Assembly (NCBI GenBank): GCA_003990765.1
Contig: RBNJ01000152.1
Location: 1-39,117 of the forward strand
Direction of reading: 5' to 3'
DNA: 39,117 nt
DNA from: Jimgerdemannia flammicorona
Lineage: Eukaryota
Every line of letters starts with the position of its first letter. The first letter of the stretch is position 1. The position numbers and the translations under genes are program-made. Below are positions 3,101 through 30,982 of this stretch, in pieces. A model generated the notes under the pieces. It did no database searches. It had not been told where the DNA came from and worked only from the letters and a program-made list of their open reading frames with translations.

Positions 3101-4000
3101 CCTCTCACCCTTGACACCTTACATACAAAAGTCCCCCATATCAACACTGAGGGCCAGTCACTCAGCTTCCCTATAGCCTCCCTTCCTGCCAGTCTAATCC
3201 TCATATCCATGTCACTAGTTCTAATGGATGTTCCCTCCTATACCTGGAAACCAACATCTACCACCTTGCCATACTCTGTCATCACTGTCTCCACCTTCCT
3301 CCTAGTCTCCTCCTTCATTACTGTAGGCACCCTCTTCACCAACAGCTACACCACCCTGGGGTCCTACCTCAGGCAGCATATCATGGGGACTGCCACCTCC
3401 CCAACTGTCACTCCATTCTTCAGAGCCTCCTCCAGTAGGCCCACCTCCTCAAAGCCCACTTTGACCCCCTCCAGGTCCTTTACAAACTTCACCGAGGCCA
3501 TCTCAGCCACTTATTTCAAGATAGGCCCCAAGACCATCCTCACTGTTACTGCCAAGCCTCTGAAGCACAGTGTCACCACAAACTCCAAGATCGATTTCCT
3601 GAGTAACAGTGCCACCACCAGCTCTGTTATACCATCAGCCAGATCCCCCTTCTGCATCAGGAACTCCTGCTCTATACCTCTATCAACCATCACATCTCTT
3701 TTTTTTTCCTGATTACCTATCACACAGCTATCAGCAGTCCCACCCCCAGCCACTGCTCCTCTAGCACCTACACTTGTATCTTCCACCTATATACCTCTCC
3801 CTCTCCCTAGGCTCTTCTTGTCTTTTCCCACAGCAGCACCAGCTCTTGATCCAGCTGGCCATCCACTCTCTTTATCTTATCTGCAAAACTTGGGAGGCCC
3901 AGCCACCTCTCATTACCACCAGATACCAGTCCTCCTCCAGAGCCCTCATCACCTTTTGACTCTCCAAAGGCCCCCATCCCCAGGCCATAACCCCTCCTGA
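164..4000 (-). mobile_element. Degenerate L1/Tx1-like LINE: ORF1 region (~2050-3990) and ORF2 (ATG ~2012) with APE endonuclease and the start of reverse transcriptase
   Basis: APE motifs in order: ILSLNVNGL...DLFLL*, GDFNMIQNQHLDR, TRIDWIL, WSDH. Linker motifs EGEQPTRY and PGEDGL. RT start LLYKDKGRREDWKNWRLIMLLDIDRKMVTKVI, with a frameshifted LDQEKAYD motif at ~175-205. Many stops and frameshifts; CpG nearly absent. Confidence 0.9.
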
Positions 4001-7000
4001 CATTCTGCTAACCAAAAGCCCCAGGTCTACCAGATCCAGCATGCTCATCAGAACACTTGCTCAATGACATTTTTATAATATCTTTTCTCCAAGTTGTGTC
4101 AAAAACTATTGCTTGAGATTGGTGTAACATGAATTGTACAGGAGAAAGATGATGATCAGGTTTGCTTAATACTCTCTCATTAGCAAAAATCTCAGTATTA
4201 TATCTGGTGATATTATTTCTTACCTCACTTTCAACTTTACTAGAACTTGAATCTTCTGTTCTCTTTTTATTAGTAGAGACCTCAGTCTTGTTTTCAGTAA
4301 TATTATTTTTGATTTCATTTTCTATCTTGCTTTCAAGCCTTGCTCTCAGAGTTATTTTTCTCATTATTTTCAATATTATCATCTTGTTTCTTATACTTCT
4401 TATATACTTCTTTTCTGTCTCTTATACTTTACCCTCTATAATATGATAATTTAAAAAATTATCATTAGTAAGTCTGAAAGTCTAATTTTAGTTATTACTA
4501 AAATGAATAGATATACTACATCTTTAATAGATATAAATGTCTAAAATTTCAGCAAACTCTTTATAATTTAAATTTGTAGCATATTTCTAAAGAAGATAAA
4601 GAGTATATCAGATTTATATATAAAGTTTAAAAAGAAGTCTATTTTGAGATATAGAGGAAAACAAAAGAGAAAGCTAAAAAGATAGAATATAATTAAGAAG
4701 TTAAACATTTTATAACTATTATATTATATAATTAAAGAACTAGATAAATTACTATTATTTACTACTCAATAGTCTTACTACTTTACTATAATCTTATCTA
4801 TATATTAGTTTTACTATATTACTTTACTGTAATCTTACTCATAGTTTTGGCTTAATAATATTATAACCAATTAAAGTTTTTAAACAAATTAGTTCAAATT
4901 GATCATATGATAGGTAAATTTGAGTTAGATTTAAATTTCTCTAACTTATTCAGAAGATCTTATATATACTTATAATAAGTAGTATTATCTATATAAATAT
5001 AGATATTATTATTAAGCTAATCAATAGAATATAATTTAAGAATATAATTATATAAATTTGTAAAATATGTCTCAAAGTTATTAAAGTTTATATTTTTGTA
5101 ATAATCTCTATTATTAGTATTTACTTCAAAGATAACTAATTGTCTAATCTATCTATATATATATTTCACTATAGTGTATAATAATCCAATAATATTCTTA
5201 TTTTTCTCTATATATAATTATTTATATGAAATCATGACTGACTATCAATATAATATTAATTGTAATATGATCTATCTAGCTAGAGTTGAATAGCATTTGG
5301 TCTGTTTTTCTTAATTCAGTTATAGTGTTGTAAATATTTTTTATACTATTTTATAATATTTACTAATTTCTAATAGTTGATTATTTTTGAAACTTAATTA
5401 TATTTACAGTCTATTTATTATAAAGGTTGAATATATATTATATCCCTTAGTACTAAGTTATAATCTCTAAGATCCAAATTTATCTCTTTAAGAAATTTTT
5501 TAAACAATAACTAGTTTACTATCTATATTGAATCTTATAGCAATTGTTTTTATATCAGATACATTAATGTATTCAGTATAGTTTCTAATTATCTCTCTTT
5601 CTATCTGAGTCTATAGCTGCAAATTTCTTATTCAACTCCTATTTATATCTAATATTCTGTATTATATTCTTTGAGAGTTTAATATATTTTGCTATTTATA
5701 TAAGAGCAGTTATAATAGTTACTATATTGACTATAGTATTTGTATAAGTTTTATAATAAATATAAATTATCATTAGCTTTTCTTCTAGAGAGAGAAGCTT
5801 TTCTTAAGATCAAGAAGAAGAAAAGTTTGAAAGAGATGCTTTAAACTTTTGAATTTAAGATGAATAATTCTCTTATTGATGTTCTTATTAATTATATTTA
5901 ATATATAATAATTTAAGAGTTGAATACTAACTTTGAGAATATCTACTACTATATTTCTTACAAGTATATCTATAGTCCTTATTGAATATTGTTCTGTTAA
6001 AATATTTCTGATTTCAAATAATTTTAGATGAAGATGGTTGATCTATACTAACTTAGTAAGAACTTATAAAGACTGGATGACAAAATCTATTCTATATTAG
6101 TGTTTTGTATCTTGTATTAATCAGAAAGGTTGAAGGTGATATATGATCTCTACTAGGAGTGATAGCTAGAGATATTAATGGTGGAGATATTGGTAATAGA
6201 GTTGGGATGAGATGTTACTACCTCTTAGCTTATGAAACTAAATATATTAGAGTTGCAGGTCAATTATACTTTATATAGTTATGCTTTATATAATTAGAAG
6301 AAGAGCTAGAGCAGGATGATAGTGAGCTATCTTTATCCATGGCAGACAATTATGAGACAGACAAGATGAGACAAGATGAGATAAGATGGATGAGATGAGA
6401 CAAGATGAGATGAGACAAGATGAGATGAGACAAGATGAGATGAGACAAGACAAGGCAAGATTGAGATGAGATGGGACAACCAATTGAGGTGGGATGGATG
6501 AATGGGAGACAGACAATGGGAGACAGATGATGGGACAGGATGGACAGATGATTTATATGAGACGAGATGAGACAACCGATTGAGGTGAGATGGACAAACA
6601 GGAGACAGACAACAGGACAGGATGGACAGACAATTTATATGAGACAGGATGGAACAACTGATTGAGGTGGGATGGAGACAAACGGGAGACAGACAACAGG
6701 ACAGGATGGACAACCAATTGAGGTGGGATGGATGAATGGGAGACAGACAACAGAATAGGATGGACAGACGATTTATATGAGACAGGATGGGACAACCGAT
6801 TGAGGTGGGATGGATGAACAGGAGATAGACAAACAGGACAGGATAGACAGACAATTTATATGAGACAGGAGACAGACGATGGGACAGGATGGACAGATGA
6901 TTTATATGAAATGGGATGGGACAACTAATTGAGGTGGGATGGATGAACGGGAGACAGACGACAGGACAGAACGGACAATTGAGATGAGATGGGACTGGAC

Positions 7001-7131
7001 AGACGATTTATATGAGACAGGATATTGATGACAGGACAGTATGGACTATTGAGACAAGATGGGATGGGACAGACAAATAGGACGGGACGGACGATTGATA
7101 CAAGACGGGATGGCAATTGAATGGACTACTG
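4001..7131 (-). mobile_element. Heavily decayed DNA transposon, probably hAT superfamily, cut on the left by the LINE
   Basis: Sharp composition boundary at 7131, where the minus strand begins CAGTAGTCC (hAT-like CAG terminus), followed by a subterminal repeat array. At ~5900-6030 the minus strand reads SKII*NQKYF...YTCKKYSSRYSQS*YSTLKLYIK*Y, which back-mutates to a BED-finger-like W..F/CxxC/LxxH pattern. The rest is too eroded to read. Confidence 0.45.
6345..7120. repeat. Degenerate tandem array (GAGAT/GAGAC pentamers and ~60-80 bp GGACAGGATGGACAGACGATTTATATGAGAC / GATTGAGGTGGGATGG units)
   Basis: Directly visible recurring units. Variants differ mostly by CG>CA/TG, consistent with an ancestral GGGACG-rich subterminal array. 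Confidence 0.85.
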
Positions 7132-7901
7132 TCAAGTGGAAATTGTGGCTTGGTGAAAATATGCAGTCACCCAAATTTGCCCTGTATATACTCTGTTCAG
7201 CATCCTTGATACGGAGTCTTCCTTTTGGTCGTCAATCGGGTGGAGCTTTTTGTTCGGTTTAAGCGCAATGCTCTTTTCAATCATGAAAGCGCCGAGGGCT
7301 TTGTGACGCTCTTCATGATCCGGTGTGTTTTCGCTGCTAGCCCAGGCCCATTCTATGACACATAGTAGCAAGTCGTTCTCCGATGTTTTAATTTGGAGTC
7401 TAGCGCAGCCTTAAGTAAGAACTCGAGGGCGTCAGCGGAAAGCCCATTTAAATCACCAAGGACAAGACGCCGAGTGCGAAATTGTTTCATTGGGATGCAC
7501 GGCGGCAACAGCTTCATTTATCAATGAAGCCACCATATCAAGACCTTTCGTCTCCTCTGTTTTCTACATAGCCAACTTCATCAAGTTGGGCGCAGAAAAA
7601 AAGTCGCTGCACGATACGTTTGGATGACCAACTCGGGTGGCAATGGAAGGGCGGATTCGATTCCATCGGTGTAGATGAATAGGAGGACGACACGAAGCGC
7701 GTCAGACTTGATCTCCCGGAGAGCGACCTTGTCCGCGTCCCGTTCGCGCATTTCACCATAGAGCATCGCGCTGAAGACCGCGCACCGCGCCGCGAGGACG
7801 CTACGCGTGGCGCCGAGCTCCACCCCGTGGAACCGCGAGTCGCTAAGGAAAAGAGCCAGGTTGATACCGAGGCTGGTTCCGGGGTTGGTCGAATTGGACA
7901 T
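7132..7901 (-). pseudogene. BTB/POZ-BACK domain pseudogene, frameshifted and truncated by the transposon at 7131
   Basis: ATG at 7901. GATRSVLAARCAVFSAMLYGEMRE...VALREIKSDALRVVLLFIYTD is a BTB core. After frameshifts and stops, LNGLSADALEFLL and SENDLLLCVIEWA resemble BACK. Confidence 0.8.
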
Positions 7902-7974
7902 AAGGCTGATATTTGGATGATGGGCAGGAGAGTTATTGGGGAGAGGATTTTTATAATATCTCAGGGCGAAAAGA

Positions 7975-8051
7975 ACGAGACAAGATGGAAAGGAATAAGG
8001 CACGATAAAAAGGAGCAATGCTTTACAAATGATGAGAAACGCAAGGCAAGG

Positions 8052-8092
<41 letters not shown>

Positions 8093-8173
8093 AACACAAG
8101 GCAGGACAAAGAGAACAAAGAACAATGCTCGCAAGGCGCATCAATAGCCAAGAGGGACCGTTAACCATCATTA
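7975..8173 (-). repeat. Dispersed ~200 bp leader module, copy 1 (upstream of the BTB pseudogene)
   Basis: Shares GAGAAACGCAAGGCAAG-poly(A)-GAGCAACACAAGGC...CATCAATAGCCAAGAGGGACC..TA.CCATCATTA with 19465-19661. Confidence 0.85.
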
Positions 8174-8592
8174 GCCATAAATCCTTGTTTAGCCACAAAT
8201 GCTTGTACGGTATATCGATTCCGTGACTTCTCGCAAAATCAAATAGACGTCGCCTCCTTGTGCCCGTGGAATCGTTCTCCAGGCTTTGCTGGAAAAAAGC
8301 AGCAGTTGGTCACATGATGATTTAGGCAGTAATAGTCACTCCTGTCTGAGTCCATCCGCCCTCAATATTACGAGGACACGGTAGCCACTGCTACTCAAAA
8401 AACGCAAAGGCTCGCTCACTCCACCCACAAGAAAAAAAGCGAGTCCAATGACGTGTAGCTACACAATTACGCACAAAAAAAATTTTGTGATAAAAAGTCG
8501 CAACTTTTGCAACACCAAATTCCACAACCGAGAACAGCCTTTTCAAAATAAATTCCCTTTTGCAACCGCTCAGCTCCCTCACTTGTAAGTCC

Positions 8593-17101: not shown

Positions 17102-17554
17102 TATTTTGGTATTAGTGGAATAACTTGCTTGATGAGAAGGGGGGGGGGGGTGCAATACGAGGTACAAGCAAAGATATAGGAGACGAGTGTTCATCTCACC
17201 CATTTTATACTTCAAAGATGGAAACGCATTTTGGACTATGCCGGTAATAGGATTCTGTGCACAAATTAAATTTTTTTTTTGAAGGTTTCGATCATCACTC
17301 GGCGCAACACGATCAGACTTTACACAATACCCCTCCCTGCCTATATTCCGCGGTCACGATGTGGCGTTCCCATTCCAACATCCACCTTGGCAACAGAGCG
17401 GACAAACAGATCCCTAAATAGTCGAGGTGATACACGTAAACGCCCATACATGGCCGTACGCTTCATGTATGCAGTCGACATGCCACCTCGTCCCATCCAA
17501 AGTCCCTAAGTCTGTAATTGACACTTTGACAGAGAACGTGTGCCTGCGCCTCTA

Positions 17555-18023
17555 CTATGGGGTTCCAAAACTGGGGTCCCTTGCCTCCTTTAGACGAAAT
17601 TCATCAATAGTAGAATACTTTTGAATAAAAGTAAAGTTTTTAAATAAATACTGGTACAACATTTTGTGATCTGTGATACATTATACTAAGATGCGTCTTG
17701 TCTCATAGTTGCAACGCGAAATCACCACGTCCTGCTCGCGATCTCGCGACACACGTCTCTCCGACACGAAATCACCACGATCTCGTGGAGCTGAAGGCGA
17801 CTGGTGCAATATTGAGAATAGGTGGCAGAAAATGTGATCATTGGTTCTGTATATCTTATAGCTTACTTCCTTAGTGTAGTCTTGTTCTGTATCTACATAT
17901 CCTATTTGTCGTCACATTCGACGTTCGAATAGTAGGTTAATAAGAATGGTATTTGTTGGTGTCACTACATCAAATTTGGATCGTTAAAGGAAGCAAGAGG
18001 ACCTCAGTTTTGGAACCCCATAG
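17555..18023. mobile_element. MITE (469 bp) with ~43-bp terminal inverted repeats and TA target duplication (Tc1/mariner-type)
   Basis: Left TA|CTATGGGGTTCCAAAACTGGGGTCCCTTGCCTCCTTTA; right TAAAGGAAGCAAGAGGACCTCAGTTTTGGAACCCCATAG|TA. No internal ORF. Confidence 0.88.
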
Positions 18024-18376
18024 TACGGACACCTTACGTGTACGATTCGATTTTCTTCAGAGGTAAATAATTACGTACCCCACGACGCCAAGCCCCGAAA
18101 GTGTGCGCCTGGGCGTAAGGACGAATATTGTCACGGTTCTCCAAGCCTGGGGTGCGTAGATCGCTAATCACTTGTTTGGTTGTTAGGGAGCTTTTGAGTA
18201 ATTTGATCTCCATATTACTAGATTTGCATATCCGGACCAGGGGAATCCATGTGATTGGTAGTAAACACAACAATGATCTACAATGCAATGATCCTGATCG
18301 TCACTTCTGTCAATCGCCACACCCGAACAGAAACACATGCATAGACCATTCCGCTTCACCGTTTAGTCTGCAATAG

Positions 18377-18575: not shown

Positions 18576-18987
18576 GTTTTATTCTTAAACTCACAAACAC
18601 TACGAAAGGGACAAAAGAGCCGTTGATTCTGTCAAACCGCGCGTCGATTGTAGTTATGTTACCTGATGCGCTTGGAATGACTTAGAAGGCGCGATGGCCA
18701 CAAATTCGCTCCCGCACACTCCGCCGAGATTCTCCATTTGGAAACATCGTTTGATGCGAAAAAGACAGTACCGTGATGCCCCTCGTGTTCGGCCTAACAG
18801 GCTTTGTCAGCTTTTATTTATACCACAATTTTTTTTTTGCTTGGCATGGCGCTTGAAAATAACTCTCCAAAATCGAATGTCTATAAATGAAACCCGGGTT
18901 CCGGCATTCATAATCATTCAGCAGACCTTCAACGTCAGCTTGCGGTGTATCCAAAAATTCACAGTCCTTGGCTAAGAAAATACAACC

Positions 18988-19104
18988 ACTGCATTGGTAT
19001 ATACTATAGGTCAGCAGATGGATTTCATTACACCAATACTAGGTAATTCCAAGCAACTCTTAGCAATCACTAGTACGACTAGCATTGCCATGCTCTAGAG
19101 CATG
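18988..19104 (-). ncRNA. Putative omegaRNA/right-end scaffold remnant of a Fanzor element
   Basis: Lies immediately 3' of the Fanzor stop: palindrome CATGCTCTAGAGCATG (19089-19104), hairpin GCAAUGCUAGU-CGU-ACUAGUGAUUGC (19088-19063), and 11-bp stem GUAUUGGUGUA/UAUACCAAUGC (19039-19029 with 19001-18991) that pairs fully only on the minus strand. Confidence 0.5.
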
Positions 19105-19205
19105 ACAACGGCTCCATCAAGCAATGCCCGTAGGAGAATCCCACGAGCTCTATTGTAATCACAGTCAATGCAAGTCCCACATCCTTGACATCGATAGATC
19201 TTGTT
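19095..19205 (-). pseudogene. C-terminal fragment of a Fanzor/TnpB nuclease (second CxxC of the zinc ribbon and RuvC-III), in frame within a chimeric 104-aa ORF (ATG 19409)
   Basis: NKIYRCQGCGTCIDCDYNRARGILLRAL matches the TnpB/Fanzor pattern K.f.C..CG...DRD.NgArNI. The DRD>DCD and NGA>NRA deviations are explainable by CpG transitions (CGT>TGT; AAC GGA>AAT AGA). Confidence 0.8.
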
Positions 19206-19464
19206 GAGATAGTGGACGTCAGGATTGAGGGAGCAGACGTTGAGGCATTCTGCTTGGGTTCGCAGGAGACAATAACGTCCTTCTCGTAGGCCCAGATGAA
19301 TGTCCATTGTTTCTGTATATTCAGGTTTTTGTGGCACAGGCCGCTCTATCGCTTGGGGCGGCTGCTCGGGTGGAGGCTTGGATGGAAGTGGGGTTGACAT
19401 GATTGACATATATAGAGATGGATGGACGCCTTTGTGCCAGCGACGAAGTATGCTTGATGGGCAG

Positions 19465-19661
19465 AAAGAAGAGAAGATGAAATGGACAGTGCGAGGCAAG
19501 ATGAAAAGGAGCGATACCTTAAAAAATGATAAGGAGAAACGCAAGGCAAGAAAAAAAAAAAAAAAAAAAGGAGCAACACAAGGCGGGACAGAGGATAAAG
19601 AGCAATGCGAGTACATCCGTCAATCCATCAATAGCCAAGAGGGACCATTAGCCATCATTAT
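19465..19661 (-). repeat. Dispersed ~200 bp leader module, copy 2 (upstream of the chimeric Fanzor-tail ORF)
   Basis: Homologous to 7975-8173 in the same orientation and at a similar distance (~55-75 bp) from a downstream ATG. Confidence 0.85.
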
Positions 19662-20146
19662 TGAACAGCACGGCGCAAACCTTTGACGGCACACTAGGGA
19701 TGAATAAACGAAGAAAGGTTCGCGGCGCTGTTCAGTGTCGTTGTCGCCATCTCGGATTACGAGTATGCTAAATGATAGCGACACACATGACGCAGGATGT
19801 TTTTAATGTAAAATCTATATCCACCAGTTTTCCAGGGAATTCCTTTTTTCACCGTTGGTTAGGTGCATTTCATACACATTGAAATAGACCGCGAGGTTCC
19901 GGGGGACAGGTGAGGCCGTCTCGTGTTTGTGGCGGGTATCTTTTTTTTTTCGCGTGCTCTTTGTTCCCGGGTGGTATCAACTAGATTTGCCTGTCTCACT
20001 TAAAGACTGTTTGCTTTGTTTATTGTCGAAGATGAGAAGAAAGGGGGACATCAATGTGGTCGATCGTCGTGCAATGCATTGCAACCCAATCTCATTATAA
20101 TATATCACGACGAGCGCGCCAGGCGCTGCTAAAAGGTCCCAAAGTA

Positions 20147-21130
20147 TTACAATTTTATTAACACACCCCTGACCGGCAATCTTTTCTTAGGGGGAGCACC
20201 CTTGCCGGCCAAACCCCGGTCACGACCAGTCAACTTCCTATCGGTCACGCAATTCTCCATCGACATGGACCGCATGACTCGCCGGAGCTCATGCACCTCC
20301 TGTTCGCTTTCCATACATTGTGCACAACACCCATTATTTATCACGCTGACCTCATGGCATTTCCAGCAGAACGTCCGGTACTTGTGGCATTTGCGGCAGG
20401 GTGCCATGATCATGGCAAGCGATGGATTGTCGGAGCAGAGGTGGCATATTGCGGCCTTACAGGTATAGCACTCATACCATGGGTGGCAGGTCGCGCAGAT
20501 GTAGACCTGCTTGAGTCCGCAGTAGCCGCAGATGATGGGATCGTACATGGCGACGCGGTTGTCGCAGGAGTTGCAGATGTAGCGATCGAATTGCATGGGA
20601 AGAGAATCTACGACGTCAGCCGGATTTCTGAAAGTTTGGTAGGAGTCGAGGAATTTACGCACTTGAACGACGGTCTCCTTCGAGCTGGGCAGGTGGCCGG
20701 TCTTAAGGCGACGCAAGGAGGGGGCAGGGTACGCTTCGAGGAGCATCATGATATCGCGCATCGAAATCAACATGCAATCGTCGAGGTTGAGTTCGAAGAG
20801 GTTGGGGCAGTTCGCGAGGATGCAGGCCAATCCTCGGGGGGTGAAAAACGTCGATCCCAGATTGATGCGTTGGATGGAGTAAATCGATGTTCGGGAGAGC
20901 TTCTCGGTCAGGAGCCGAACCACTTCGCGATTGACGTCAAGGCTGCGGTTCTTGAAGCCGCCGAGGTCGATGGTATGCCATGTAAGAGGGTTATCGAAAA
21001 CGGTGCGGTTAAACAAGTCGCAGGTCGACGCCAGGGCATAGCGAGCTGGAAGTGGCAGGTAGGGAATTATGTGACCGCAAAGTATTTCAGTGGGGACAAG
21101 AAGGAGTGGGGCCCTTTCCTCGAATGTCAT
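20147..21130 (-). CDS. F-box protein with LRR-like middle and Cys-rich (multi-CxxC) C-terminal region, ~327 aa; start codon uncertain
   Basis: F-box LLLVPTEILCGHIIPYLPLPARYALASTCDLF...W.TIDL. LRR-like INLGSTFFTPRGLACILANCPNLFELNLDDC. About eight CxxC pairs. The frame is open up to 21388. Confidence 0.82.
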   Translation of the reverse strand: MTFEERAPLLLVPTEILCGHIIPYLPLPARYALASTCDLFNRTVFDNPLTWHTIDLGGFKNRSLDVNREVVRLLTEKLSRTSIYSIQRINLGSTFFTPRGLACILANCPNLFELNLDDCMLISMRDIMMLLEAYPAPSLRRLKTGHLPSSKETVVQVRKFLDSYQTFRNPADVVDSLPMQFDRYICNSCDNRVAMYDPIICGYCGLKQVYICATCHPWYECYTCKAAICHLCSDNPSLAMIMAPCRKCHKYRTFCWKCHEVSVINNGCCAQCMESEQEVHELRRVMRSMSMENCVTDRKLTGRDRGLAGKGAPPKKRLPVRGVLIKL

Positions 21131-21832
21131 TTGGGGTACGGCGTTTGAGGGCCGATTTCGCTCAGGCCAGAAGTGGGCAAAGCACGAGCGTTTAAAAAAT
21201 TGGAGGATATCGAAATAGATGGTGGTAGCATTTATGACCAACATGATGTAAAGGGGGGGGGGGTGGAGTAAGGCTTTGGGCAAAGAGATGCAGCGGCCGC
21301 AGTTATGCGAGATGGATGTCGAGAAGTCATGGGCCCTTTGTTCGCCTTCTGTGCTGGATTCAGGCAATGCATAAAGGTCGGCGTCCAATAAAATTGTGAC
21401 GGTTATCTGTCCGGAACATTTCCATTGCTAACCGCATGAAAGTGGCTATCTTTGTGTTTGGCTGTTGGTCCGATGACCCCACAACAGTCGTATCCTTGAC
21501 CTCTCGCCTCTCCAATCGCCATCCTCAGAAGCCCCGAAGCCTTCATTAGACGGACGCACCTCTCTACCGCAGGCCATCGATAACTGATACGGCGCAGAAT
21601 TTAATTTCTGCGCATGAACCTTCCACAAGTAGGTTTTCGCTGCGCCCCGTAATCTAATTACATAACTGAAGAGTGCATGGTCCAAGAAAACGGTCGACTC
21701 TGTTGTGTTAAAAAGACAATCCAAGACAGGGAGATTCCGCAGGCGTGGGGGAAAAAATGGAATCGGAAGCTCCCAGGGCAGCGCGAAGAGTATTTTAGGC
21801 TTCATTGCATTATAGTGTGGCAGATAATTATG

Positions 21833-24010
21833 TAAACGTCGTTTATTTTTTTTGCAAGTTCGCGCCAATGAACAAGGACTCTCAAGTATATATACATGGG
21901 CATGGTTCGATATCTCATGCGATGCTTCCTATCATCCCCCTTTTATGCCAGACTATGTTTGATATTGACAGCATCAAAAAACATTGACCTAGCTTAAATT
22001 TGTTGAACAAAACAACCAGAGCACATAGTCCAAGAACCGTTATTCCCACGCCACTTGTGCATCCACTGGGTCAAGAAGCTGTCGGCCTGCATGCCACAAA
22101 AGGAGAAAAAATCACTAAGAGCGAAATCATTGCCAAATTAATCAAGGCTGGGTTCGTCTTATCGTCCGTCAACCTAAGCACAGGGAACTGATGTAAAATC
22201 CGCTCGATCCCACCCTTGATTATGTCGCAGCTGAAATAAATACGTCGAGAGCCGATACGGAACGCCTGCGTGTCCGACACGATGTTCAGGTACATGCCGA
22301 GCGCAAGTCGCAGGCTGCGGTAGTCGTTGTGAACCCACGCTGTTACCACTTCGTAGAGCATCAAGTCGTCCTCCGCGACGAATTCGCCGATGGCGTAGCC
22401 GCCTGTAGAAGGATTTTGGCAGCGGAAGTGAGAGAGCGTTTCCAATAAGCAAGCGTAATGGTTACAGTTAATCCTACCGTGATAATGCCGACCGTGGCTA
22501 ATTGAACCACGCTTTACGGAAATTGTTAACCGGAAAGACACTACTCCATTTCCAGTCGGGAAATCCTAAGAACTGTTCCACAGATTCGCATCCATCTCGG
22601 CCTCCGCGGTGACGCCATACCCTTCCCCCCTAAATTAAGGGTCAATTCGATTCAATTTGAATTGAATCGAGGTCCAATTCGATTTGAAGTCCAATTTGAA
22701 TTTAATTTTTCAAAATTCAAAAAACTCAACCAAAACATATCCAAATTTAATAAATTTTAGCTTGTTTAATGTGCCTTATGATGGAGAATCTAGTACAATA
22801 AAGAATATTAAATATGGACATATTTCCATTGAGTTATTACATTTTTAATTTGGGATAAATATTTCAAATCGAATCAGACCCCAATTTGATTTGATCAAAT
22901 CAAATCAGGCCTCAATTTGATTCACTAGTTGAGGGTTTGATGGTGGAATTATCATCTGAGGAATTGGGTTCAGCTGTGACCTGCATATCGACACCGCTTG
23001 CAATCTCAACAGCAGGCATGCCTTCGGGCAGAGCCTCATTATTAGGTTTAAACTCGATGGTGGTTTCATCAACGGGCTCGCATAGATAGGTGTACAATAA
23101 GTTCATCAGCTGTGAATATACTTCAACGTCTCCTAAAGATGATCCTATTTTCTCTAAAAACGAGTACAAATTCAGATCCTTCTCTAGCCAGCGCGACCAA
23201 TGTTCTTGGATGTCATCTCCGATTTCCATTCTCGCGTGTCTCGTAGCTTTAAAACACTCTACTAGGATTTTAAATCGAGCTAGAGAAATAGGGGTTGACA
23301 AACCCTGGAAAGCCAACGCATCGCCCTCTGCCCAATATACCCTGCTCGAGACGATTTTCTCGTACGCCTCCCTCGTCCGCCAATCCATCTCGTTCAACTT
23401 GTGCTTCGGAACAATACCAAGCGCCTGCGCCACAGTGGTGTAATACGCGGCCAACACAATCCAGCGTAGCCCCTCGTGCGGATCCCAGGCACAGATGGCG
23501 GGATACATGTGGCAGAGGCACACAAGGCACTTTGTGAACACAGAGTCCGAGAGCTTCTTATCCTCGGGGAGCGTGATCAGCTGGACAAGGAGGGCTATGG
23601 AGCGGGTGAGGTGGTCATGACGGCGGAGCATGGCGGGCTTGCAAGTGACCACCCGAATCGTTATCTTGTTGATAAGGCGGATGACGTCCGAATCGTCGAT
23701 TATGGTGTCGAGTCCCATCCTGCACAATTGCGGGAGGAAGAGTTATTTTTCGCGTTTTAGGGACGCGAGATCGGTATCGGAGATCAACATCACAAAATCC
23801 TGGTACCTTACGAGACTCACATGAATATTTCCAATGAGTTCAATTCGAAACATTTACGATCCTGCAGCTCATACGAATTGTGCGACGACTCGGACAGAGC
23901 GAGACCATCCCATGACGATATCCACTTTGGGCGGCGGGGACTGGTCCGTAGCTGGTGTAGCTTCGCCGTTTCGTTCCATAAAAATAGGACGGTAAAGTGT
24001 GTGAAAGCGG
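21833..24010 (-). pseudogene. Internally deleted tandem duplicate of the adjacent large gene
   Basis: 22920-24010 matches ~29420-30510, and 21833-22635 matches ~24060-25135. The ~4.3 kb middle is absent. There is an 11-nt frameshifting deletion in exon 1 (~23905) and further deletions in the 3' part. Confidence 0.9.
22635..22915. mobile_element. MITE-like insertion (~280 bp) with ~54-bp degenerate inverted repeats built of ATTCG/AATCG pentamers
   Basis: Left TTAAGGGTCAATTCGATTCAATTTGAATTGAATCGAGGTCCAATTCGATTTGAA aligns with the reverse complement of 22863-22915. Differences are mostly CpG transitions; the core is AT-rich; no clear TSD. Confidence 0.65.
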
Positions 24011-24440
24011 GGAGGCTTAGCTTTAATATTTCGGAAGCTCGCGAAAGACCATTTTAGGCAAACGCCTTATAATTATATTTTTGCAAGTTCTTATCAATGA
24101 ACAAGGACTGTTCAAGTACGTGGGCATGATTTGATATTTCATGTAATACTTCCTATCCCCCTTTTATGCTCCTTGGCCACTAGACTATGTTTGATATTGA
24201 CAGCATCAGGAAACACTGACCTAGATTCTCTATTGAAAAATTTCGTGAACAAAGCTCAAGATCGCTCTTTTTTGAGAACAATCAGAGCACATAATCCAAG
24301 AACCGTTATTCCCACGCCACTTATGTATCTTGCATGCATCCACCGGGTCAAGAAGCTGTCGACCTGCATGTCGCAAAAAAAAGAAAAAATCACTAAGAGC
24401 GAAATCTCAAAGGTTTTTCTAAAAAATATATATAGACGAA

Positions 24441-27400
24441 TCAAAATACCTTCATTGCCAAATTAATCAAGGTTGGGTTCACAACCACATTCTCAAACTG
24501 CTCCTCCACCTTTTTATCGTTCGTCACGGAATACGAATCTTCTCTTCGGACGACAATCATGTTGAGCAGCTGCGGCGGGCCCCGTGCCAACAACCTAAGC
24601 GCGGGGGACTGATGTAAAATCCGCTCGATCCCACCCTTGATTATATCGCAGCTGAAATAAATACGCCGAGAGTCGATACGGAACGCCTGCGTGTCCGACA
24701 TAATGTTCAGGTACATGCTGAGCGCAAGTCGCAGGCTACGGTAATCGTTGTGAACCCACGCTGTTACCACTTCGTAGAGCGTCAAGTCGTCCTCCGCGAC
24801 GAATTCGCCGATGGCGTAGCCGACGACATCATCGACCTGTAGAAGGATTTTGGCAGCTGAAGTGAGAGAGCTTTTTCAATAAGTAAGCGTAATGGTTACA
24901 GTTAAACTTACGGTGACAGTGTCGACCAGTTTCATGTGGCTAATTGAACCATGCTTTACGGAAATTGGTAACCGGAAAGAGACTACTCCAGCATAATTGC
25001 TTTTCCAGTCTTTCCCATTGTCTGATTCTCCGGTTTGCTTGTGAGATGAATCGAGAAAACCTAAGAACTGTTCCACAGATTCGCATCCATCTCGGCCTCC
25101 GCGGTGACGCCATACTCTTTTTCCCCCCAAATTGAGAATACATTGTTAATTGAACCTTGGTTCTCAAATACAACCAAAAATTATGTGCCCTTCAACATAC
25201 TTATCCTCGTTCTTGTATATCCACTTCATTACCTCCGCTTGCATAAATTTGCTCAATTCGGATAATCGCATAATATGTAGGTTATCCTTCAACACTTTCT
25301 TCATATTCTTTAACTGTACACATCCAACATGTGGAATAAAAAATTTAAATATATAAAAATATAATTTATCAGAAGAAAAAACATTGTTACAAAATTTACT
25401 TGCCTTTGGCAGAACATACGATCGTTTGCCGTCTTGTAGTTCATCATTGTCAAGCAACAAAACCAGATGATTCATGAGCTCGTGGAAATGACTACGGTTG
25501 TCGAAAAATAAAGCTTCTGCGTCTACAGTTCGGATCCATGTCGAGACGTGTGATAATGCGAGTTGGACAATGAATGATACAGCCATTTCCTATATGATTT
25601 GATAATTCACTAATTCTGTCAGATCCCTGATATTTTGTATTCAGTGTGGAATGGCATGCCAGAACCAGAATCATTGCATACCTTGCAATCAAGTTGCTTG
25701 AAACGCTCTTCCTCATCTTTAATCTGATGTTCTGATGGCACAATCCCTCTATCCAGATCCAAAACCGCCTCTGCCGTATCCTCCCTCCTTTCCCGTGCGT
25801 TGGTTGTGGATGGCAACTTTCTTTGCCACCGTTCGTAATCAAACGCCTCTGCAAACTTCGCTTCGTTCACGTTTCCGTAAGCGCAAATGTCACTGATGAC
25901 GGTCGATATCAAATGCCCCACCGGCAAAAACGCAGACAACACTGGCGACCGACGCAGGTGGTGTCGCACGAACAAGGTGAAGATCCTTCCGGCGAGATCT
26001 TGGTTATGGAAGCGAGATTGAGCTGCGTAGTCTTTGACTGTTGTTTCCGTGATACGGATCGGAGTAGATGATGTGGGCGGTTTGACAGGCGGGTTTATGG
26101 AGGGATTGGCAATCTTTCTTTGGAGAGGTTCATCTTCAATGGGCGATGGCAAATGTGGCGGCGGAACGTTGAGCACATTCGATGTTGTCTCGTACAAAAT
26201 CCCTTCGGTAGAAGAATATGCCTCCGCCACAGCATCCAAGGACTCTGGTAACAACACGACATCTTCTCCTGCTCTAATTTTTTCTGGAGCATAATCGTAA
26301 TAGGACGCCATCTCGGTAAAGAAATCCTTACAAACAGTCAACACAGAGGACATTAGGACCGGCTTGATGCCCGCGTCAAGTATGAGCGAGAAAGTGCGAG
26401 GATCTGGAAATCGGAGCGGCAAGATGATGGCTGGAACGTACGGTGTCTGCATATCCGTATTATGCGGTGGTGAGAGCAGATTTCGGAAGACAGTCAGCCA
26501 GATCTTGCTTGTATCGAAAATATGTCCGTTTGTATACGCCTTGAACACATAGAGCCCTTCATCAGTCATAAGTGTCTCCACGTTCTCAATCTCCTTGGCA
26601 ACGCCATCTGACTCATCCAGAATCCTGATCAACAGACTGTCGCACCGAAATCCAATCTCGAGGGGTCTTTCACAATGGGAACCCTTTGGGGAATAGCACC
26701 CAGCGATGGAATCAGGACACGACGACAAGCAGGCAAAGAAAGATGTTTCGATTCTGACGGTGAGGTTCTTGAGCGCGTCACGTTTTACCAACAGCATGGA
26801 TTTCTGCAATTCATATGAGGCTTCGATTTCATCTTCTCGAGCGAGCAAGTCAAACTACAAAAAATCGAACGTCACAGTTTAGTTTTTTTTTTTTTTTTTT
26901 TTTTTTAAGAATATATATATATATATATACTTTCACCTAAAACAAATGTAAACCTTATACCTTGGCATCCACCAATTCTGGTATCTCCTTCTTCCGCAAA
27001 GCTTGATCTACTGCACGCATCGCCAATGCCCTTTTTGACTTGAGCTCATTCACGCTATCATTAGCCCCGAATAACTTTGCAACATCTACGTTCGCACCAT
27101 TCGCCAAAATCACAGTATCACATCTAGCCAACCTTAGCATTCGCAGCACAAGATTCTGAAAACAATCATGCAACGTTATACGATACGATGTCTCCGCATT
27201 ACCGAGCGGCACGTCAGAGAACTGAAGCCTCAGCTGAACATTTTCGAAGAGGATAGAATGATATCCAGCGTCTATGAAACGAGTCCGGAGGGATCGATTA
27301 TTGGGATGAGAGGCTATGAACGAGTGAATGTGGAGTATACGGTGGGCGAGGCGATCTGAGGGTGGGAGCATGGGGTTGAGGGGCAACTGGCTGGACAGAA

Positions 27401-30400
27401 ACTCGCGAAGAATAGTTTTGGCGTAGGCTTTGATGGGCTTGTAGTGCGCGATGTCTAGATGTTCGATGCGAGACACGGCAATCCCAAGGGCGTGTACGGT
27501 TTCTTTGTCGTTGATGACTTCAGCAGGAAGGCGTGTGGTGAATAGGGCATGGGTCTCTTCGGGCGAATGATTGATTGCGTCCAGAAGAGTCGGAGCTGGA
27601 GATTTGTCTTCGTCGTCATCAGAAATAATACGGAGGAGGGAGACAAGCAAAATATTGTCGGTGGCTGTGGAGACGACGTCGGCGCTGATCCTGTGCATTT
27701 CAAGATGTCAATCCAAGGCCTGAACCAACTGTCCGGAAACTAATATCCAAGTACATACCTATTCATTAATAAATTATCTTCAAACTCTTTAAGTATGGCT
27801 AACACCAACGGTTCCACAAACGTATATGTTGCGAACGCCTTCTGCTCCATAAAACACACCGATAACATCGTGCTCACTGCCTCCAATCGCTTCATATTAA
27901 CCGTGCGTTCATTAACCAGTTTCTCAACGATAGTCGCGTACATATGATGGGTGAGCTCCGGTCTACATACCCGGTGTAAGGCGTATACATCCTGGCGCCT
28001 TGCCTTGCGGATCATGCCGCGAAACATCCGCGTAATCCCAATGATATGTGCAGGAAATTGGGTACAGAAGAAGTCGAAATCGGTGTTCAATATCAGCAAG
28101 GAAAGTGATTGTTGATGCACACGGTCAAGGACGAAGCGATCCAGGAGCTGGTCGGAGAGATCCCGGAGGTCGGTGAGCATATCAGTGTTAGAACCATTGT
28201 GGGTGCCAAGCTTCAGGATCAACGGGAGTCCGGATGAGAGGAGGTCGGGAGATGGCTTCCCCGATTCGAAAACGTTATTGATACTTTCCAGCATGTGGTT
28301 GAGTAGCTGTGGTTTTTCATCAGGTGATAGTCCCTCTACACACTCTACATTTTCCATTAACTTTTTGATCTCAACGAAGAATTGAAAGGCCGAGCAACGC
28401 GCCAAAACGACACCAGCGGTACCCACGCCAAAGATATGGGTTACAAGAGACAAACTACAAGAGTCTTTCAAGCAAGATGGGATGGTGACAGCAAATGTGT
28501 AAACAAGATCTTGATCAAGTAATAGCAGAGCCTTGCCAAGAGAAAGGAGATTGACAACTAGTGATAAAAATTCGGCGTCTTCGAGAACATTTTTGGGATC
28601 CTCAGCGTCATCCTCCTTAAATTCTTCTTCCAGACTTGTCTCGCCATTCGTGGAGAAGGGCTGTGTGGTAACTATATCAGCTGCCTCAGTTTGTTCATTC
28701 AACCCATTCACCTCATTTTTTATGCTGGAAGTCTCAATGGTCTCGTTAACAACTGAATCACGCATGTTTTCTTTATCATCCACAGAATGAATAGTATCTC
28801 CAGTTCTTATAGTGTGATCCATCTGAGGTACCAAACTCTCCCCCACCGACTCTATCTTGACTTCCTCCTGCAATGCCGTTCGCTCATCTCCCCTCTTTTG
28901 CCTTCTCCTAGGTTTCCGCACAGGTCGATACTTTTCTATCAATCCCTTCAAGAACCAAAACCCTTCCTTCATGACTTTCTTATACTGCTTGCTCTGGAAC
29001 GCCAGTTCCCCCAACTCCATCATGCGCACGTGTGTTTCTGGTTGATCGGCAAGTTTAATCCCGACGAGCGGTCCCATGAGGTTGGGCAGATACAGGCAAA
29101 CGAAGGCGAGAGGTGCCCAGCCATGTTCGAGTGCCGTAGCGAGAAGTGAGAGCATCGCGGATGCAGTAGGCAGTGTAGTGTGGTGGGAGAGGAGAGCCGG
29201 GAGGATGTGGCGAAGAAAGTGAGTAGTCACGCGGGTAGAGTGAACGGCGAGGCAGATGCGGGTTGTGTGGATGAGGTCCGGGATAATGGATGGGAGAAGC
29301 GTTGCAGGAAGGTCGACGAGAGTGAACATGAGGAGGGGCCAGGTTGCAGGTGTAGGCTCGAGGATAGGCGGTAGAGGTTCAAACGGTGAGGCAGGTTCGC
29401 TTGTTGCCTCTGCTAATGTCAAGGTTTTGATGGTGGAAATATCATCTGGGGAATTGGGTTCGGCTATGGCCTGCGTATCGAGGAATACTTCATCGCCGGT
29501 AATCTCAACAGCAGGTATGCTTTCGGACAGAGCCTCATTATCAGGTTCAACCTCGATGGCGGGTTCATCAACGGGCTCGCATAGATAGGTGTACAAGAAG
29601 TTCACCAACTGTGAATATACTTCAACGTCTCCTAAAGGTAACCCTATTTTCTCTAAAGACGAGTACAAATTCAGTTCATTCTCTAGCCAGCGCGACCAAT
29701 GCTCTTGGATGTCATCTCCAATTTCCATTCTCGCGTGTCTCGTAGCTTTAAAACACTCCACCAGGATTTGAAATCGAGCAAGAGAAATAGGGGTTGACAA
29801 GCCCTGGAAAGCCGACGCATCGCCATTTGCCCAATATACTCCGCTCGTGACGATTTTCTCGTACGCCTCCCTCGTTCGCCAATCCATCTCGTTCAACTTG
29901 TGCTCCGGAATGATGCCAAGCGCCTCCGCCACAGTGGTGTAATACGCGGCCAACGCAACCCAGCGTAGCCCCTCGTGCGGATCCCAGGCACAGATGGCGG
30001 GATACATGTGGCAGACGCACACAAGGCACTTCGTGAACACGGCGTCCGGGAGCTTTTTATCCTCGGGGAGCGTGATCAGCTGGACAAGAAGGGATATGGA
30101 GCGGGTGAGGTGGTCATGACGGCGGAGAATGTCGGGCTTGCAAGTGACCATCCGAATCGTGATCTTGTTGATAAGGCGGATGACGTCCGAATCGTCGATT
30201 ATGGTGTCGAGTCCCATCCTGCACAATTGCGGGAGGAGGAGTTATTTCTTCGCGTTTTAGCGGCGGGGGATCAGTAACGGAGATCAAGGCGAAGCAAGAC
30301 TCACACGAATATTTCCAACGGGTTCAACTTGAACCATTGACGATCCTGCAGCTCGCCATACGATTTGTGTGACAACTCGAACAGAGCGAGACGGAAGTCA

Positions 30401-30477
30401 TCCCATCCCATGACGATATCCACTTTGGGTGGCGGAGACTGGTCTGCAGCTGGTGTAGTTTCGCCGTTTCGTTCCAT
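24441..30477 (-). CDS. Large uncharacterised protein (~1811 aa), helical N-terminal/middle region with C-terminal GNAT-like acyltransferase domain; exons 30477-30305, 30218-27759, 27690-26961, 26854-25682, 25589-25404, 25313-25201, 25116-24912, 24836-24441
   Basis: Seven 68-106 nt introns with phase-consistent donors (GTGAGT, GTATGT, GTATAA, GTATGC, GCAAGT, GTATGT, GTAAGT) join the separate ORFs into one 5436-nt frame. The last exon VVGYAIGEF...YEVVTAWVHNDYRSLRLALSMY resembles GNAT motif A. An alternative ATG lies at 30525. Confidence 0.75.
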
Positions 30478-30982
30478 GAAAATAGGACGTAAAAGTGTGC
30501 GAAAGCAAGGAGGGTCTGCAGTCATACTAACGTGGCTTGGCTGTAATATTGAGGAATATTAAGGTTTAGGTCTTTGAATGATACCAAATCCTTTCGCATT
30601 ACCTACGCATTATTAACCAAAATATTCAACCTTTGCCTTTGGCTTCACCCTTCATCGAGGATTTCTTCCTATTACAGTTGTGATCGCTGCTCCGGAAGAG
30701 ATAATATTTGATGGGATTGGGTATTTTTGTGAGGTTCAAGACGCAGCCGCGACTGCTCTTTAATTCCCATTTACTTAGTGCCCCTCTCGGAAGAGATCAT
30801 TCTCCCCATCCTCTACTCCTTTCCAACCACCAGCCTCATCCGCCTCACCTATGTACTGATACTTAATTACCTGCTACTTACTAATTTGATATGAATACCA
30901 CCTAGTCCTGTCAATTATTTAATCTGATATTTATATTAAGTATAATATATAAGTATAATTAGATATATAATAATATATAAAC

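What the first reader, a model, noticed from the sequence alone, without database searches (positions are those of the whole stretch)
18988..19409. Fanzor/TnpB nuclease tail plus omegaRNA-like hairpins, fused in frame to an unrelated ORF
Seen: only the last ~36 codons of a TnpB-type protein survive (KIYRCQGCGTCIDCDYNRARGILLRALLDGAVVML*), followed directly by three stems, two of which need G-U pairs available only on the coding strand. Established: TnpB/Fanzor omegaRNAs overlap or follow the ORF 3' end and take their guide from DNA flanking the element's right end. Inference: this is the right end of a Fanzor (possibly IS607-associated Fanzor2-like) element reduced to roughly the part needed for a guide RNA. 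It could be a stand-alone guide locus used in trans or simply a relic, and it implies a full-length family elsewhere in the genome. The fragment is in frame with a Pro-rich host-like ORF (ATG 19409), so it could be transcribed from a borrowed promoter.
Basis: partly seen in the sequence, partly recalled or inferred. Interest (0 to 1): 0.8.

Follow-up and report, generated by a model that had tools for sequence, protein, structure and literature searches.

The report
Dead miniature Fanzor2 transposon, fungal genome
This is a small, broken-down copy of a known kind of jumping gene (IS607 with the RNA-guided nuclease Fanzor2) that kept both of its ends and a well-folding guide-RNA scaffold, but the supposed host gene fused to it is only scrambled transposon sequence and no working nuclease was found to use the guide.

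Summary
The Fanzor2 tail and hairpins are real, but the upstream 'host-like' ORF is not host DNA. Window 19665→19015 (minus strand, 651 bp) is a complete, internally deleted, non-autonomous IS607/Fanzor2 element: left end, scraps of the serine transposase TnpA, the WED/RuvC-I motif (D→N), then the last zinc-finger half, RuvC-III and an ωRNA-like right end. The ATG at 19409 reads TnpA out of frame; the continuous frame is specific to this copy. The right end is sharp at 19015 (0 of 42 other matches extend into the flank). Both junctions are CCG (decayed to CTG here). Five right-end subfamilies share one fold (closing stem plus two hairpins), but covariation was not significant. All long Fanzor2 and all 8 TnpA matches in this assembly carry stops. 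Contigs from two guessed-RNA runs bridge the right end; strand unknown. Leads beyond the relic: left flanks favour ACCG while right ends read TCCG (predicted TAM, self-avoidance), and eight copies share nested 5′ flanks with unique 3′ flanks, suggesting flank capture. The scan had already reported dead IS607-Fanzor2 copies elsewhere in this genome; no note on this miniature family came up.

The parts
19669..20092 (-). 5' flank shared, in nested lengths, with 7 other copies of this subfamily (family A); outside the canonical left end
19666..19668 (-). left junction core, CTG here, CCG in relatives (inferred CpG decay)
19474..19665 (-). left end and 5' untranslated part; TGGCTAA-like short direct repeats; lacks 11 nt (first repeat) relative to the longer relatives L144/L177; TnpA start codon deleted
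   Evidence: alignment to L144 and L177, z 33-34
19337..19473 (-). four deletion-joined scraps of IS607 TnpA: N-terminal MerR-like HTH, linker, and a frameshifted remnant of the catalytic RVSSPKQ motif; contains the out-of-frame ATG 19409
   Evidence: vs L120 TnpA, z 16; the 19426-19325 part alone z 4.3 and 5.2
19211..19310 (-). Fanzor2 WED end (WTFIW motif) and RuvC-I strand with catalytic D read as N; one 1-nt frameshift near 19265
19095..19207 (-). Fanzor2 second CxxC, RuvC-III motif and C-terminus with stop codon; everything between RuvC-I and here is deleted
19015..19131 (-). ωRNA-like scaffold / right end: mini hairpin 19129-19119, closing stem 19118-19113 with 19022-19017, hairpin 1 19110-19083 (stop codon in its loop), hairpin 2 19076-19036, terminal core 19017-19015. 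The true scaffold may start further upstream.
18995..19014 (-). unique flank = putative guide (length assumed from published Fanzors, not measured)
   Evidence: no copy extends past 19015; for native guide lengths
18933..19392 (.). stretch covered by locus-specific contigs in two runs guessed to be RNA; strand unknown
20147..21244 (-). neighbouring host gene (weak F-box-like hit), not part of the element

Best explanation
A dead, MITE-like, non-autonomous derivative of an IS607-type element that encoded a serine transposase (TnpA) and a Fanzor2 nuclease. Shown: a parent was reduced by several internal deletions to about 650 bp keeping both ends; such copies are dispersed with precise CCG junctions and no terminal inverted repeats. 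Inferred: they were mobilised in trans by TnpA of full-length relatives, by recombination across a short identical core inside CCG, as for bacterial IS607 across GG. The ωRNA scaffold survives because it is the right end that the transposase needs; while Fanzor2 was active these copies could have acted as 'ghost' guide donors protecting their own insertion sites (target RCCG + flank), with the TCCG right end avoiding self-cleavage. Today the partners in this assembly are broken and this copy is decaying; its open frame is accidental.
For: 43 matches to the flagged stretch in the genome, none extending past 19015. Left end shared with decayed TnpA+Fanzor2 relatives; 24 left-end pattern matches vs 0 for the control, 14 with CCG at the junction. 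26 of 31 aligned right ends finish in CCG, the other 5 in single-transition variants. Near-full-length relatives L129/L130 carry TnpA followed by Fanzor2 with 16 and 22 stops; 8 of 8 resolvase matches have stops. Only the window copy, of 7 in which the C-terminal motif was found, keeps the Pro-rich frame open into the zinc finger. About 6% divergence from sister copies, scaffold 3/117 vs rest 31/452, p 0.12. No compensatory changes within family A. Published IS607 mechanism: passages of PMC6188088 and 10.1101/2023.11.20.567912.
Against: The window copy has one of the least damaged scaffolds (3 differences, no gaps) and contigs of two guessed-RNA runs bridge its right end, so it may be transcribed. 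The assembly has 35,354 contigs and only 65 of 154 candidates were scored, so a young intact Fanzor2 could be missed. The right ends were partly picked with a motif ending in CCG-like letters, which inflates the 26 of 31. No empty-site allele was found to prove the core. The shared 5' flanks of family A are not explained by simple two-ended transposition.
Confidence: 0.8

Rival explanations
1. Active stand-alone guide locus: the copy is transcribed on the minus strand, trimmed by a Fanzor2 made elsewhere, and directs cleavage or binding at RCCG + flank-matching DNA.
For: Intact fold matching the family architecture; locus-specific contigs across the right end in two studies; ghost ωRNAs of SpuFz1 work in trans (passages of PMC10432273).
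Against: No intact Fanzor2 among 68 matches; 3 non-self one-mismatch hits to core+guide, the best 19 nt with one mismatch in two copies of an AT-rich repeat, with no further homology; terminal CCG decayed; run type and strand unknown.
Confidence: 0.07
2. The element has been co-opted or simply read through as part of a longer non-coding transcript unrelated to Fanzor biology, possibly on the plus strand.
For: Contigs reach 82 nt into the flank, much more than a mature guide; a TATAAAT lies on the plus strand at 18882-18888, about 50 nt before the place where the contigs begin (sequence).
Against: Contigs give no strand, start or level; no sign of selection. This would add to, not replace, the relic origin.
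Confidence: 0.1
3. A new chimeric protein gene (Pro-rich host exon plus Fanzor zinc-finger tail).
For: 104-aa open frame; the three differences in run X2 over 18933-19373 do not break it (one missense, two silent by my reading of the codons).
Against: The Pro-rich part is frameshifted TnpA; sister copies lose the frame; only half a zinc finger remains.
Confidence: 0.02

Closest known systems
Fanzor2 in IS607-type elements, e.g. ApmFz2 (mimivirus L79, PDB 9B0L); Bao & Jurka 2013 (PMC3627910); Yoon et al. (10.1101/2023.08.09.552727)
   Same: Serine-recombinase TnpA followed by Fanzor2 in the parents; no TIRs; DPG-type RuvC-I; P0009's best PDB match is 9B0L (E 1.7e-17); long-range pairing between the 5' part and the last bases of the scaffold resembles the ApmFz2 description.
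   Different: This copy is non-autonomous and multiply deleted; junction core is CCG rather than GGG; right-end hairpins are unalignable between subfamilies; pseudoknot not tested.
'Ghost' loci of Fanzor elements (Spu-1 ghosts of about 550 nt; Saito et al. 2023, PMC10432273)
   Same: Short element keeping both ends and an ωRNA-like right end without a functional nuclease gene; similar size.
   Different: Spu-1 is Fanzor1 with 30-nt inverted repeats and well-conserved intact genes in the same genome; here no inverted repeats, recognisable TnpA and RuvC scraps inside, and no intact partner found.
NlovFz2 (TAM 5'-CCG; PMC10432273) and ISXfa1 (TAM GGG, guide flanked by CGG; 10.1101/2023.08.09.552727)
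   Same: CCG next to the insertion; one base of difference between target motif and right-end motif, as in ISXfa1.
   Different: TAM here is inferred from flanks only; the paper reports no clear transposase association for NlovFz2, while this family is TnpA-linked.

Membership tests
IS607-type element | TnpA serine recombinase with N-terminal HTH | tested here: met
   Remnants in the window align to L120/L138/L144/L177 TnpA; PF00239 hits in relatives. Non-functional in this copy.
IS607-type element | No terminal inverted repeats; short identical core at both junctions | tested here: met
   No end-to-end inverted repeat among the 25 longest listed; CCG-type core at left and right junctions; CTG at both ends of this copy.
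IS607-type element | Core exchange without target duplication shown by an empty site | tested here: inconclusive
   No empty-site allele found; 3 identical bases at both ends fit a core or a 3-bp duplication.
Fanzor2 | DPG RuvC-I, shifted RuvC-II glutamate before the zinc finger, C4 zinc finger, RuvC-III aspartate, N-terminal HTH_OrfB_IS605 | tested here: met
   Met for the lineage: P0009 has PF07282 and PF12323 and aligns to 9B0L; relatives L129/L130 cover residues 13-683 and 63-683.
Fanzor2 | Intact catalytic triad in this copy | tested here: not met
   RuvC-I D read as N; RuvC-II and first CxxC deleted.
ωRNA | Structured scaffold overlapping the ORF 3' end and ending at the right end | tested here: met
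   Same architecture within 0-1.4 kcal/mol of the minimum in 11 of 16 natural copies from 5 subfamilies, including this one; closing stem 90% paired vs 16-44% when slid.
ωRNA | Significant covariation | tested here: inconclusive
   Closing stem: 2 of 6 pairs with double changes, 34-388 of 500 shuffles as high; none in family A; RNAalifold found no common fold on the cross-subfamily alignment.
ωRNA | Discrete small RNA extending 14-21 nt into the flank, bound by Fanzor | not testable with these tools
   Only unstranded contigs were available.
Ghost guide locus acting in trans | Intact cognate nuclease in the same genome | tested here: not met
   None among 68 matches; 65 of 154 candidates scored, fragmented assembly.
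Helitron / TIR MITE / retrocopy | CTRR end with hairpin, terminal inverted repeats, or poly(A) tail | tested here: not met
   Right ends finish in CCG followed by unrelated flanks. The CTRR feature is recalled, not from a call.

The most novel reading that the evidence does not exclude
A fungal IS607/Fanzor2 mini-element that moved host DNA: after an 11-nt lesion removed the first left-end repeat, TnpA paired the intact right end with variable upstream sites, so successive copies carried nested 5' flanks (30 bp to over 750 bp, including a host promoter region) while always gaining a new 3' flank, that is, a new guide. Combined with an RCCG target and a TCCG right end, this would be one-ended, flank-capturing IS607 transposition in a eukaryote that also spreads ωRNA cassettes, at least one still transcribed.
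Probability: 0.25. Interest if true: 0.65.

Novelty: new member of a known kind. Interest (0 to 1): 0.3.

Why it matters
As a single locus it is a fossil. As a family it gives precise ends, a predicted TAM (RCCG) and an ωRNA architecture for a fungal Fanzor2 clade whose intact members exist in public data (P0009 and named chytrid and Glomeromycotina proteins); a GC-rich TAM would be useful for editing, and the right-end/target one-base difference would extend the ISXfa1 self-avoidance rule to eukaryotes. If the shared 5' flanks reflect capture by TnpA, IS607 elements can reshuffle eukaryotic host DNA, which two searches did not show in print.

Tried and rejected
Host-ORF fusion: rejected. Right end near 18985: rejected, conservation stops at 19015. 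Guide target: pattern search gave 3 non-self one-mismatch hits, no extended homology; viral collections were not searched. Rfam: 1 chance match, E 0.7. Cross-subfamily RNAalifold: no common structure, alignment of the inner hairpins unreliable; no covariance model was built. Metagenome scan with P0009: 1 weak locus, not used. Family-A copies as paralogs of the F-box gene: no hit outside the window among fetched loci. Guide-driven ectopic homing as the cause of shared 5' flanks: the first bases of the 3' flanks are unrelated by inspection. CG/CCG at family-A 5' breakpoints: exact CCG in 1 (L064), CG within a few bases in 1-2 more, absent in 3; too weak. L137 as empty site or donor of L060: its downstream sequence does not match L060's 3' flank and its gene copy is the frameshifted one; direction unresolved. 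Sequencing runs: no holder is on record as RNA. In one search both guessed-RNA runs have no contig over 18300-18932, and 19743-19964 is uncovered, and both stop at 18933; the DNA run covers only 19909-20063, so this does not meet even the weak-hint standard and depth was not used to rank genes. Earlier-findings look-ups by sequence and by words returned nothing. Papers were read as search listings and keyword passages only; supplements were not opened and could hold fungal Fanzor2 ends or ghost lists that bear on novelty.

Full report
Observation. The minus-strand frame from ATG 19409 to the stop at 19097-19095 is open and ends in the quoted peptide. Its Pfam hit is weak (PF07282, E 0.005, below cut-off), but it matches an intact 685-residue Fanzor2, P0009, found with a relative from this genome, at E 1.1e-8. 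P0009 carries PF07282 and PF12323 and its best PDB match is ApmFz2, 9B0L. The RNA after the ORF folds better than shuffles on the coding strand (z -2.3; -2.6 vs -1.2 antisense). The window's genes (FGAM synthase, GH9 hydrolase, BTB, F-box-like) and the named homologs (chytrid, Glomeromycotina) point to a fungal genome; that is inference.

Boundaries. The flagged stretch is a dispersed repeat: 43 matches in the 231-Mb assembly (40 of 58 candidates scored), and none of the 42 others extends beyond 19015. Several unrelated Fanzor2 subfamilies in the genome end in the same CCATCCG; 26 of 31 aligned right ends finish in CCG and 5 in single-transition variants, always preceded by T (these ends were partly chosen by that motif). 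The left end is at 19665: the sequence from there aligns to the start of longer TnpA-bearing relatives L144 and L177 (z 33-34). A left-end pattern gave 24 matches against 0 for the control; 14 have CCG at the junction, 6 near-variants, 1 unclear, 1 is an internal duplicate and 2 look unrelated. The window copy has CTG at both junctions, which I read as CpG decay.

What the 'host-like' ORF is. Relatives L120, L138, L144 and L177 encode a typical IS607 TnpA, HTH first, then the RVSSPKQ catalytic motif. Window 19473-19337 is four deletion-joined scraps of that gene (z 16); ATG 19409 falls inside it in another frame. 19310-19211 is the Fanzor2 WED end and RuvC-I strand, with the catalytic D read as N and a 1-nt frameshift (z 8.1 against the best parent, 1.1-4.9 against three others). 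A further deletion joins RuvC-I to the second CxxC at about 19207. Of 7 family copies in which the C-terminal motif was found, only this one keeps the Pro-rich frame open into the zinc finger. So the element is a 651-bp internally deleted IS607/Fanzor2 derivative with its own left end, and the fusion is an accident. A sister family (B) shares the same 5' deletions but has the right end of L144, while family A has the right end of another subfamily; a right-end swap is inferred.

ωRNA-like fold. With a six-pair stem between the GATGGA of the last codons and the TCCATC before the terminal CG enforced, 11 of 16 natural copies from five subfamilies stay within 1.4 kcal/mol of their minimum and show the same layout: optional mini hairpin, closing stem, hairpin 1, long hairpin 2 (the 16 were chosen as the less damaged of 36 folded). 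The closing stem is 90% paired versus 16-44% when slid, but covariation is not significant; family A shows no compensatory change and RNAalifold finds no common fold across subfamilies. Long-range pairing of 5' scaffold bases with the last bases is described for ApmFz2 (passages of PMC11832414). The window's scaffold differs from its sisters at 3 of 117 positions versus 31 of 452 elsewhere (p 0.12): intact, but no demonstrated selection.

Partners and targets. The genome holds 70 zinc-ribbon matches, 68 matches to P0009 and 8 resolvase matches. The two near-full-length Fanzor2 copies have 16 and 22 stops, stop-free matches span under 125 residues, and 8 of 8 resolvase matches have stops. Only 65 of 154 candidates were scored and the assembly is fragmented. 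The putative guide begins at 19014; core plus 13 guide bases gave 3 non-self one-mismatch hits without extended homology.

Expression. Two runs of different studies, guessed by the tool to be RNA, have contigs specific to this locus: 18933-19208 and 19179-19392 with no differences in X1, 18933-19373 with 3 differences in X2; both bridge the right end by 82 nt, and both also cover the F-box-like gene. The closest paralog is 86% identical. X2's differences suggest the insertion is shared by two isolates. Contigs give no strand or ends; a plus-strand TATAAAT at 18882-18888 makes an antisense transcript as plausible as an ωRNA precursor.

Mechanism. Bacterial IS607 TnpA binds short direct repeats near the ends, excises a circle and integrates across an identical GG core without duplication (passages of PMC6188088 and 10.1101/2023.11.20.567912). 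I infer the same here with a core inside CCG, supplied in trans. Of the 14 CCG left junctions 10 are ACCG (background 24%, p 2e-4), 3 GCCG (one of them an internal inversion) and 1 TCCG (p 0.07 for depletion), while right ends are TCCG. This predicts an RCCG TAM that spares the element's own right end, as reported for ISXfa1 (GGG vs CGG; passages); NlovFz2 has a CCG TAM (passages of PMC10432273). The scaffold persists because it is the right end; past use as a ghost guide is possible, present use unlikely.

Unexplained. The window and 7 sister copies share DNA upstream of the left end in nested lengths (to 19693, 19828, 19835, 19872, 19872, 19902 and 20092 in window coordinates), yet each has its own 3' flank. 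Three of them continue instead into the upstream region of an intact small secreted-type host gene at L060, 530 and 760 bp of which travel with L062 and L061. Family-B left flanks are all different. Family A lacks 11 nt of the left end. Right-end-anchored flank capture would explain this; later deletions of a larger composite element would too. Breakpoints are at CCG in one case only. Searches for IS607 with 'one-ended transposition' (1 paper, where the term concerns Helitrons) and with MITE and eukaryotes (12 listings, titles and abstract starts only) showed no such report.

Comparison and verdict. IS607-associated Fanzor2 (PMC3627910, passages; PMC10530073, passages) and ghost elements are known, and this scan has noted dead IS607-Fanzor2 copies elsewhere in this genome (8 of 21 notes shown). 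This locus is a new, dead member of that kind: interest 0.3. The family-level leads (RCCG target, shared ωRNA layout, possible flank capture) are the parts worth following.

Noticed in passing
window 7967-8207 (minus strand): A second, left-end-only fragment of the same transposon family (CCG junction at about 8208) runs directly into a BTB/POZ-domain ORF (7581-8171) and supplies its first codons.
   Followed up: partly
window 17553-18025: A 473-bp element with 45-nt terminal inverted repeats (80% complementary), MITE-like, upstream of the GH9 gene.
   Followed up: no
L060:2159-3737 and L137:1300-3041: A small secreted-type gene without Pfam match and its upstream region are duplicated; L060's copy is intact, L137's is frameshifted, and the duplication ends about where the family-A segment begins.
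   Followed up: partly
L053/L129 (C2583), L033: In near-full-length relatives the TnpA C-terminus overlaps the Fanzor2 N-terminal region in another frame.
   Followed up: no
L128 (C591): A family-B mini-element lies about 450 bp upstream of a different, decayed TnpA+TnpB element in the same orientation.
   Followed up: no
L012/L069 right end: The right-end junction plus 36 nt of flank is tandemly repeated, giving repeat-spacer-like copies of the end and its guide.
   Followed up: no
L008, L009, L020, L021: Several copies carry internal inversions, with one part of the element flipped against the rest.
   Followed up: no
window 21900-30550: Tandem duplications: a partial copy (22912-23718) of the 825-aa ORF at 27740-30217 (about 90% identity, 6.5 kb apart) and a 2.4-kb-spaced repeat at 22170-25119; the ORF has no Pfam match.
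   Followed up: no
window 6360-7070: Purine-rich degenerate tandem repeats next to an AT-rich block at 4000-6000.
   Followed up: no
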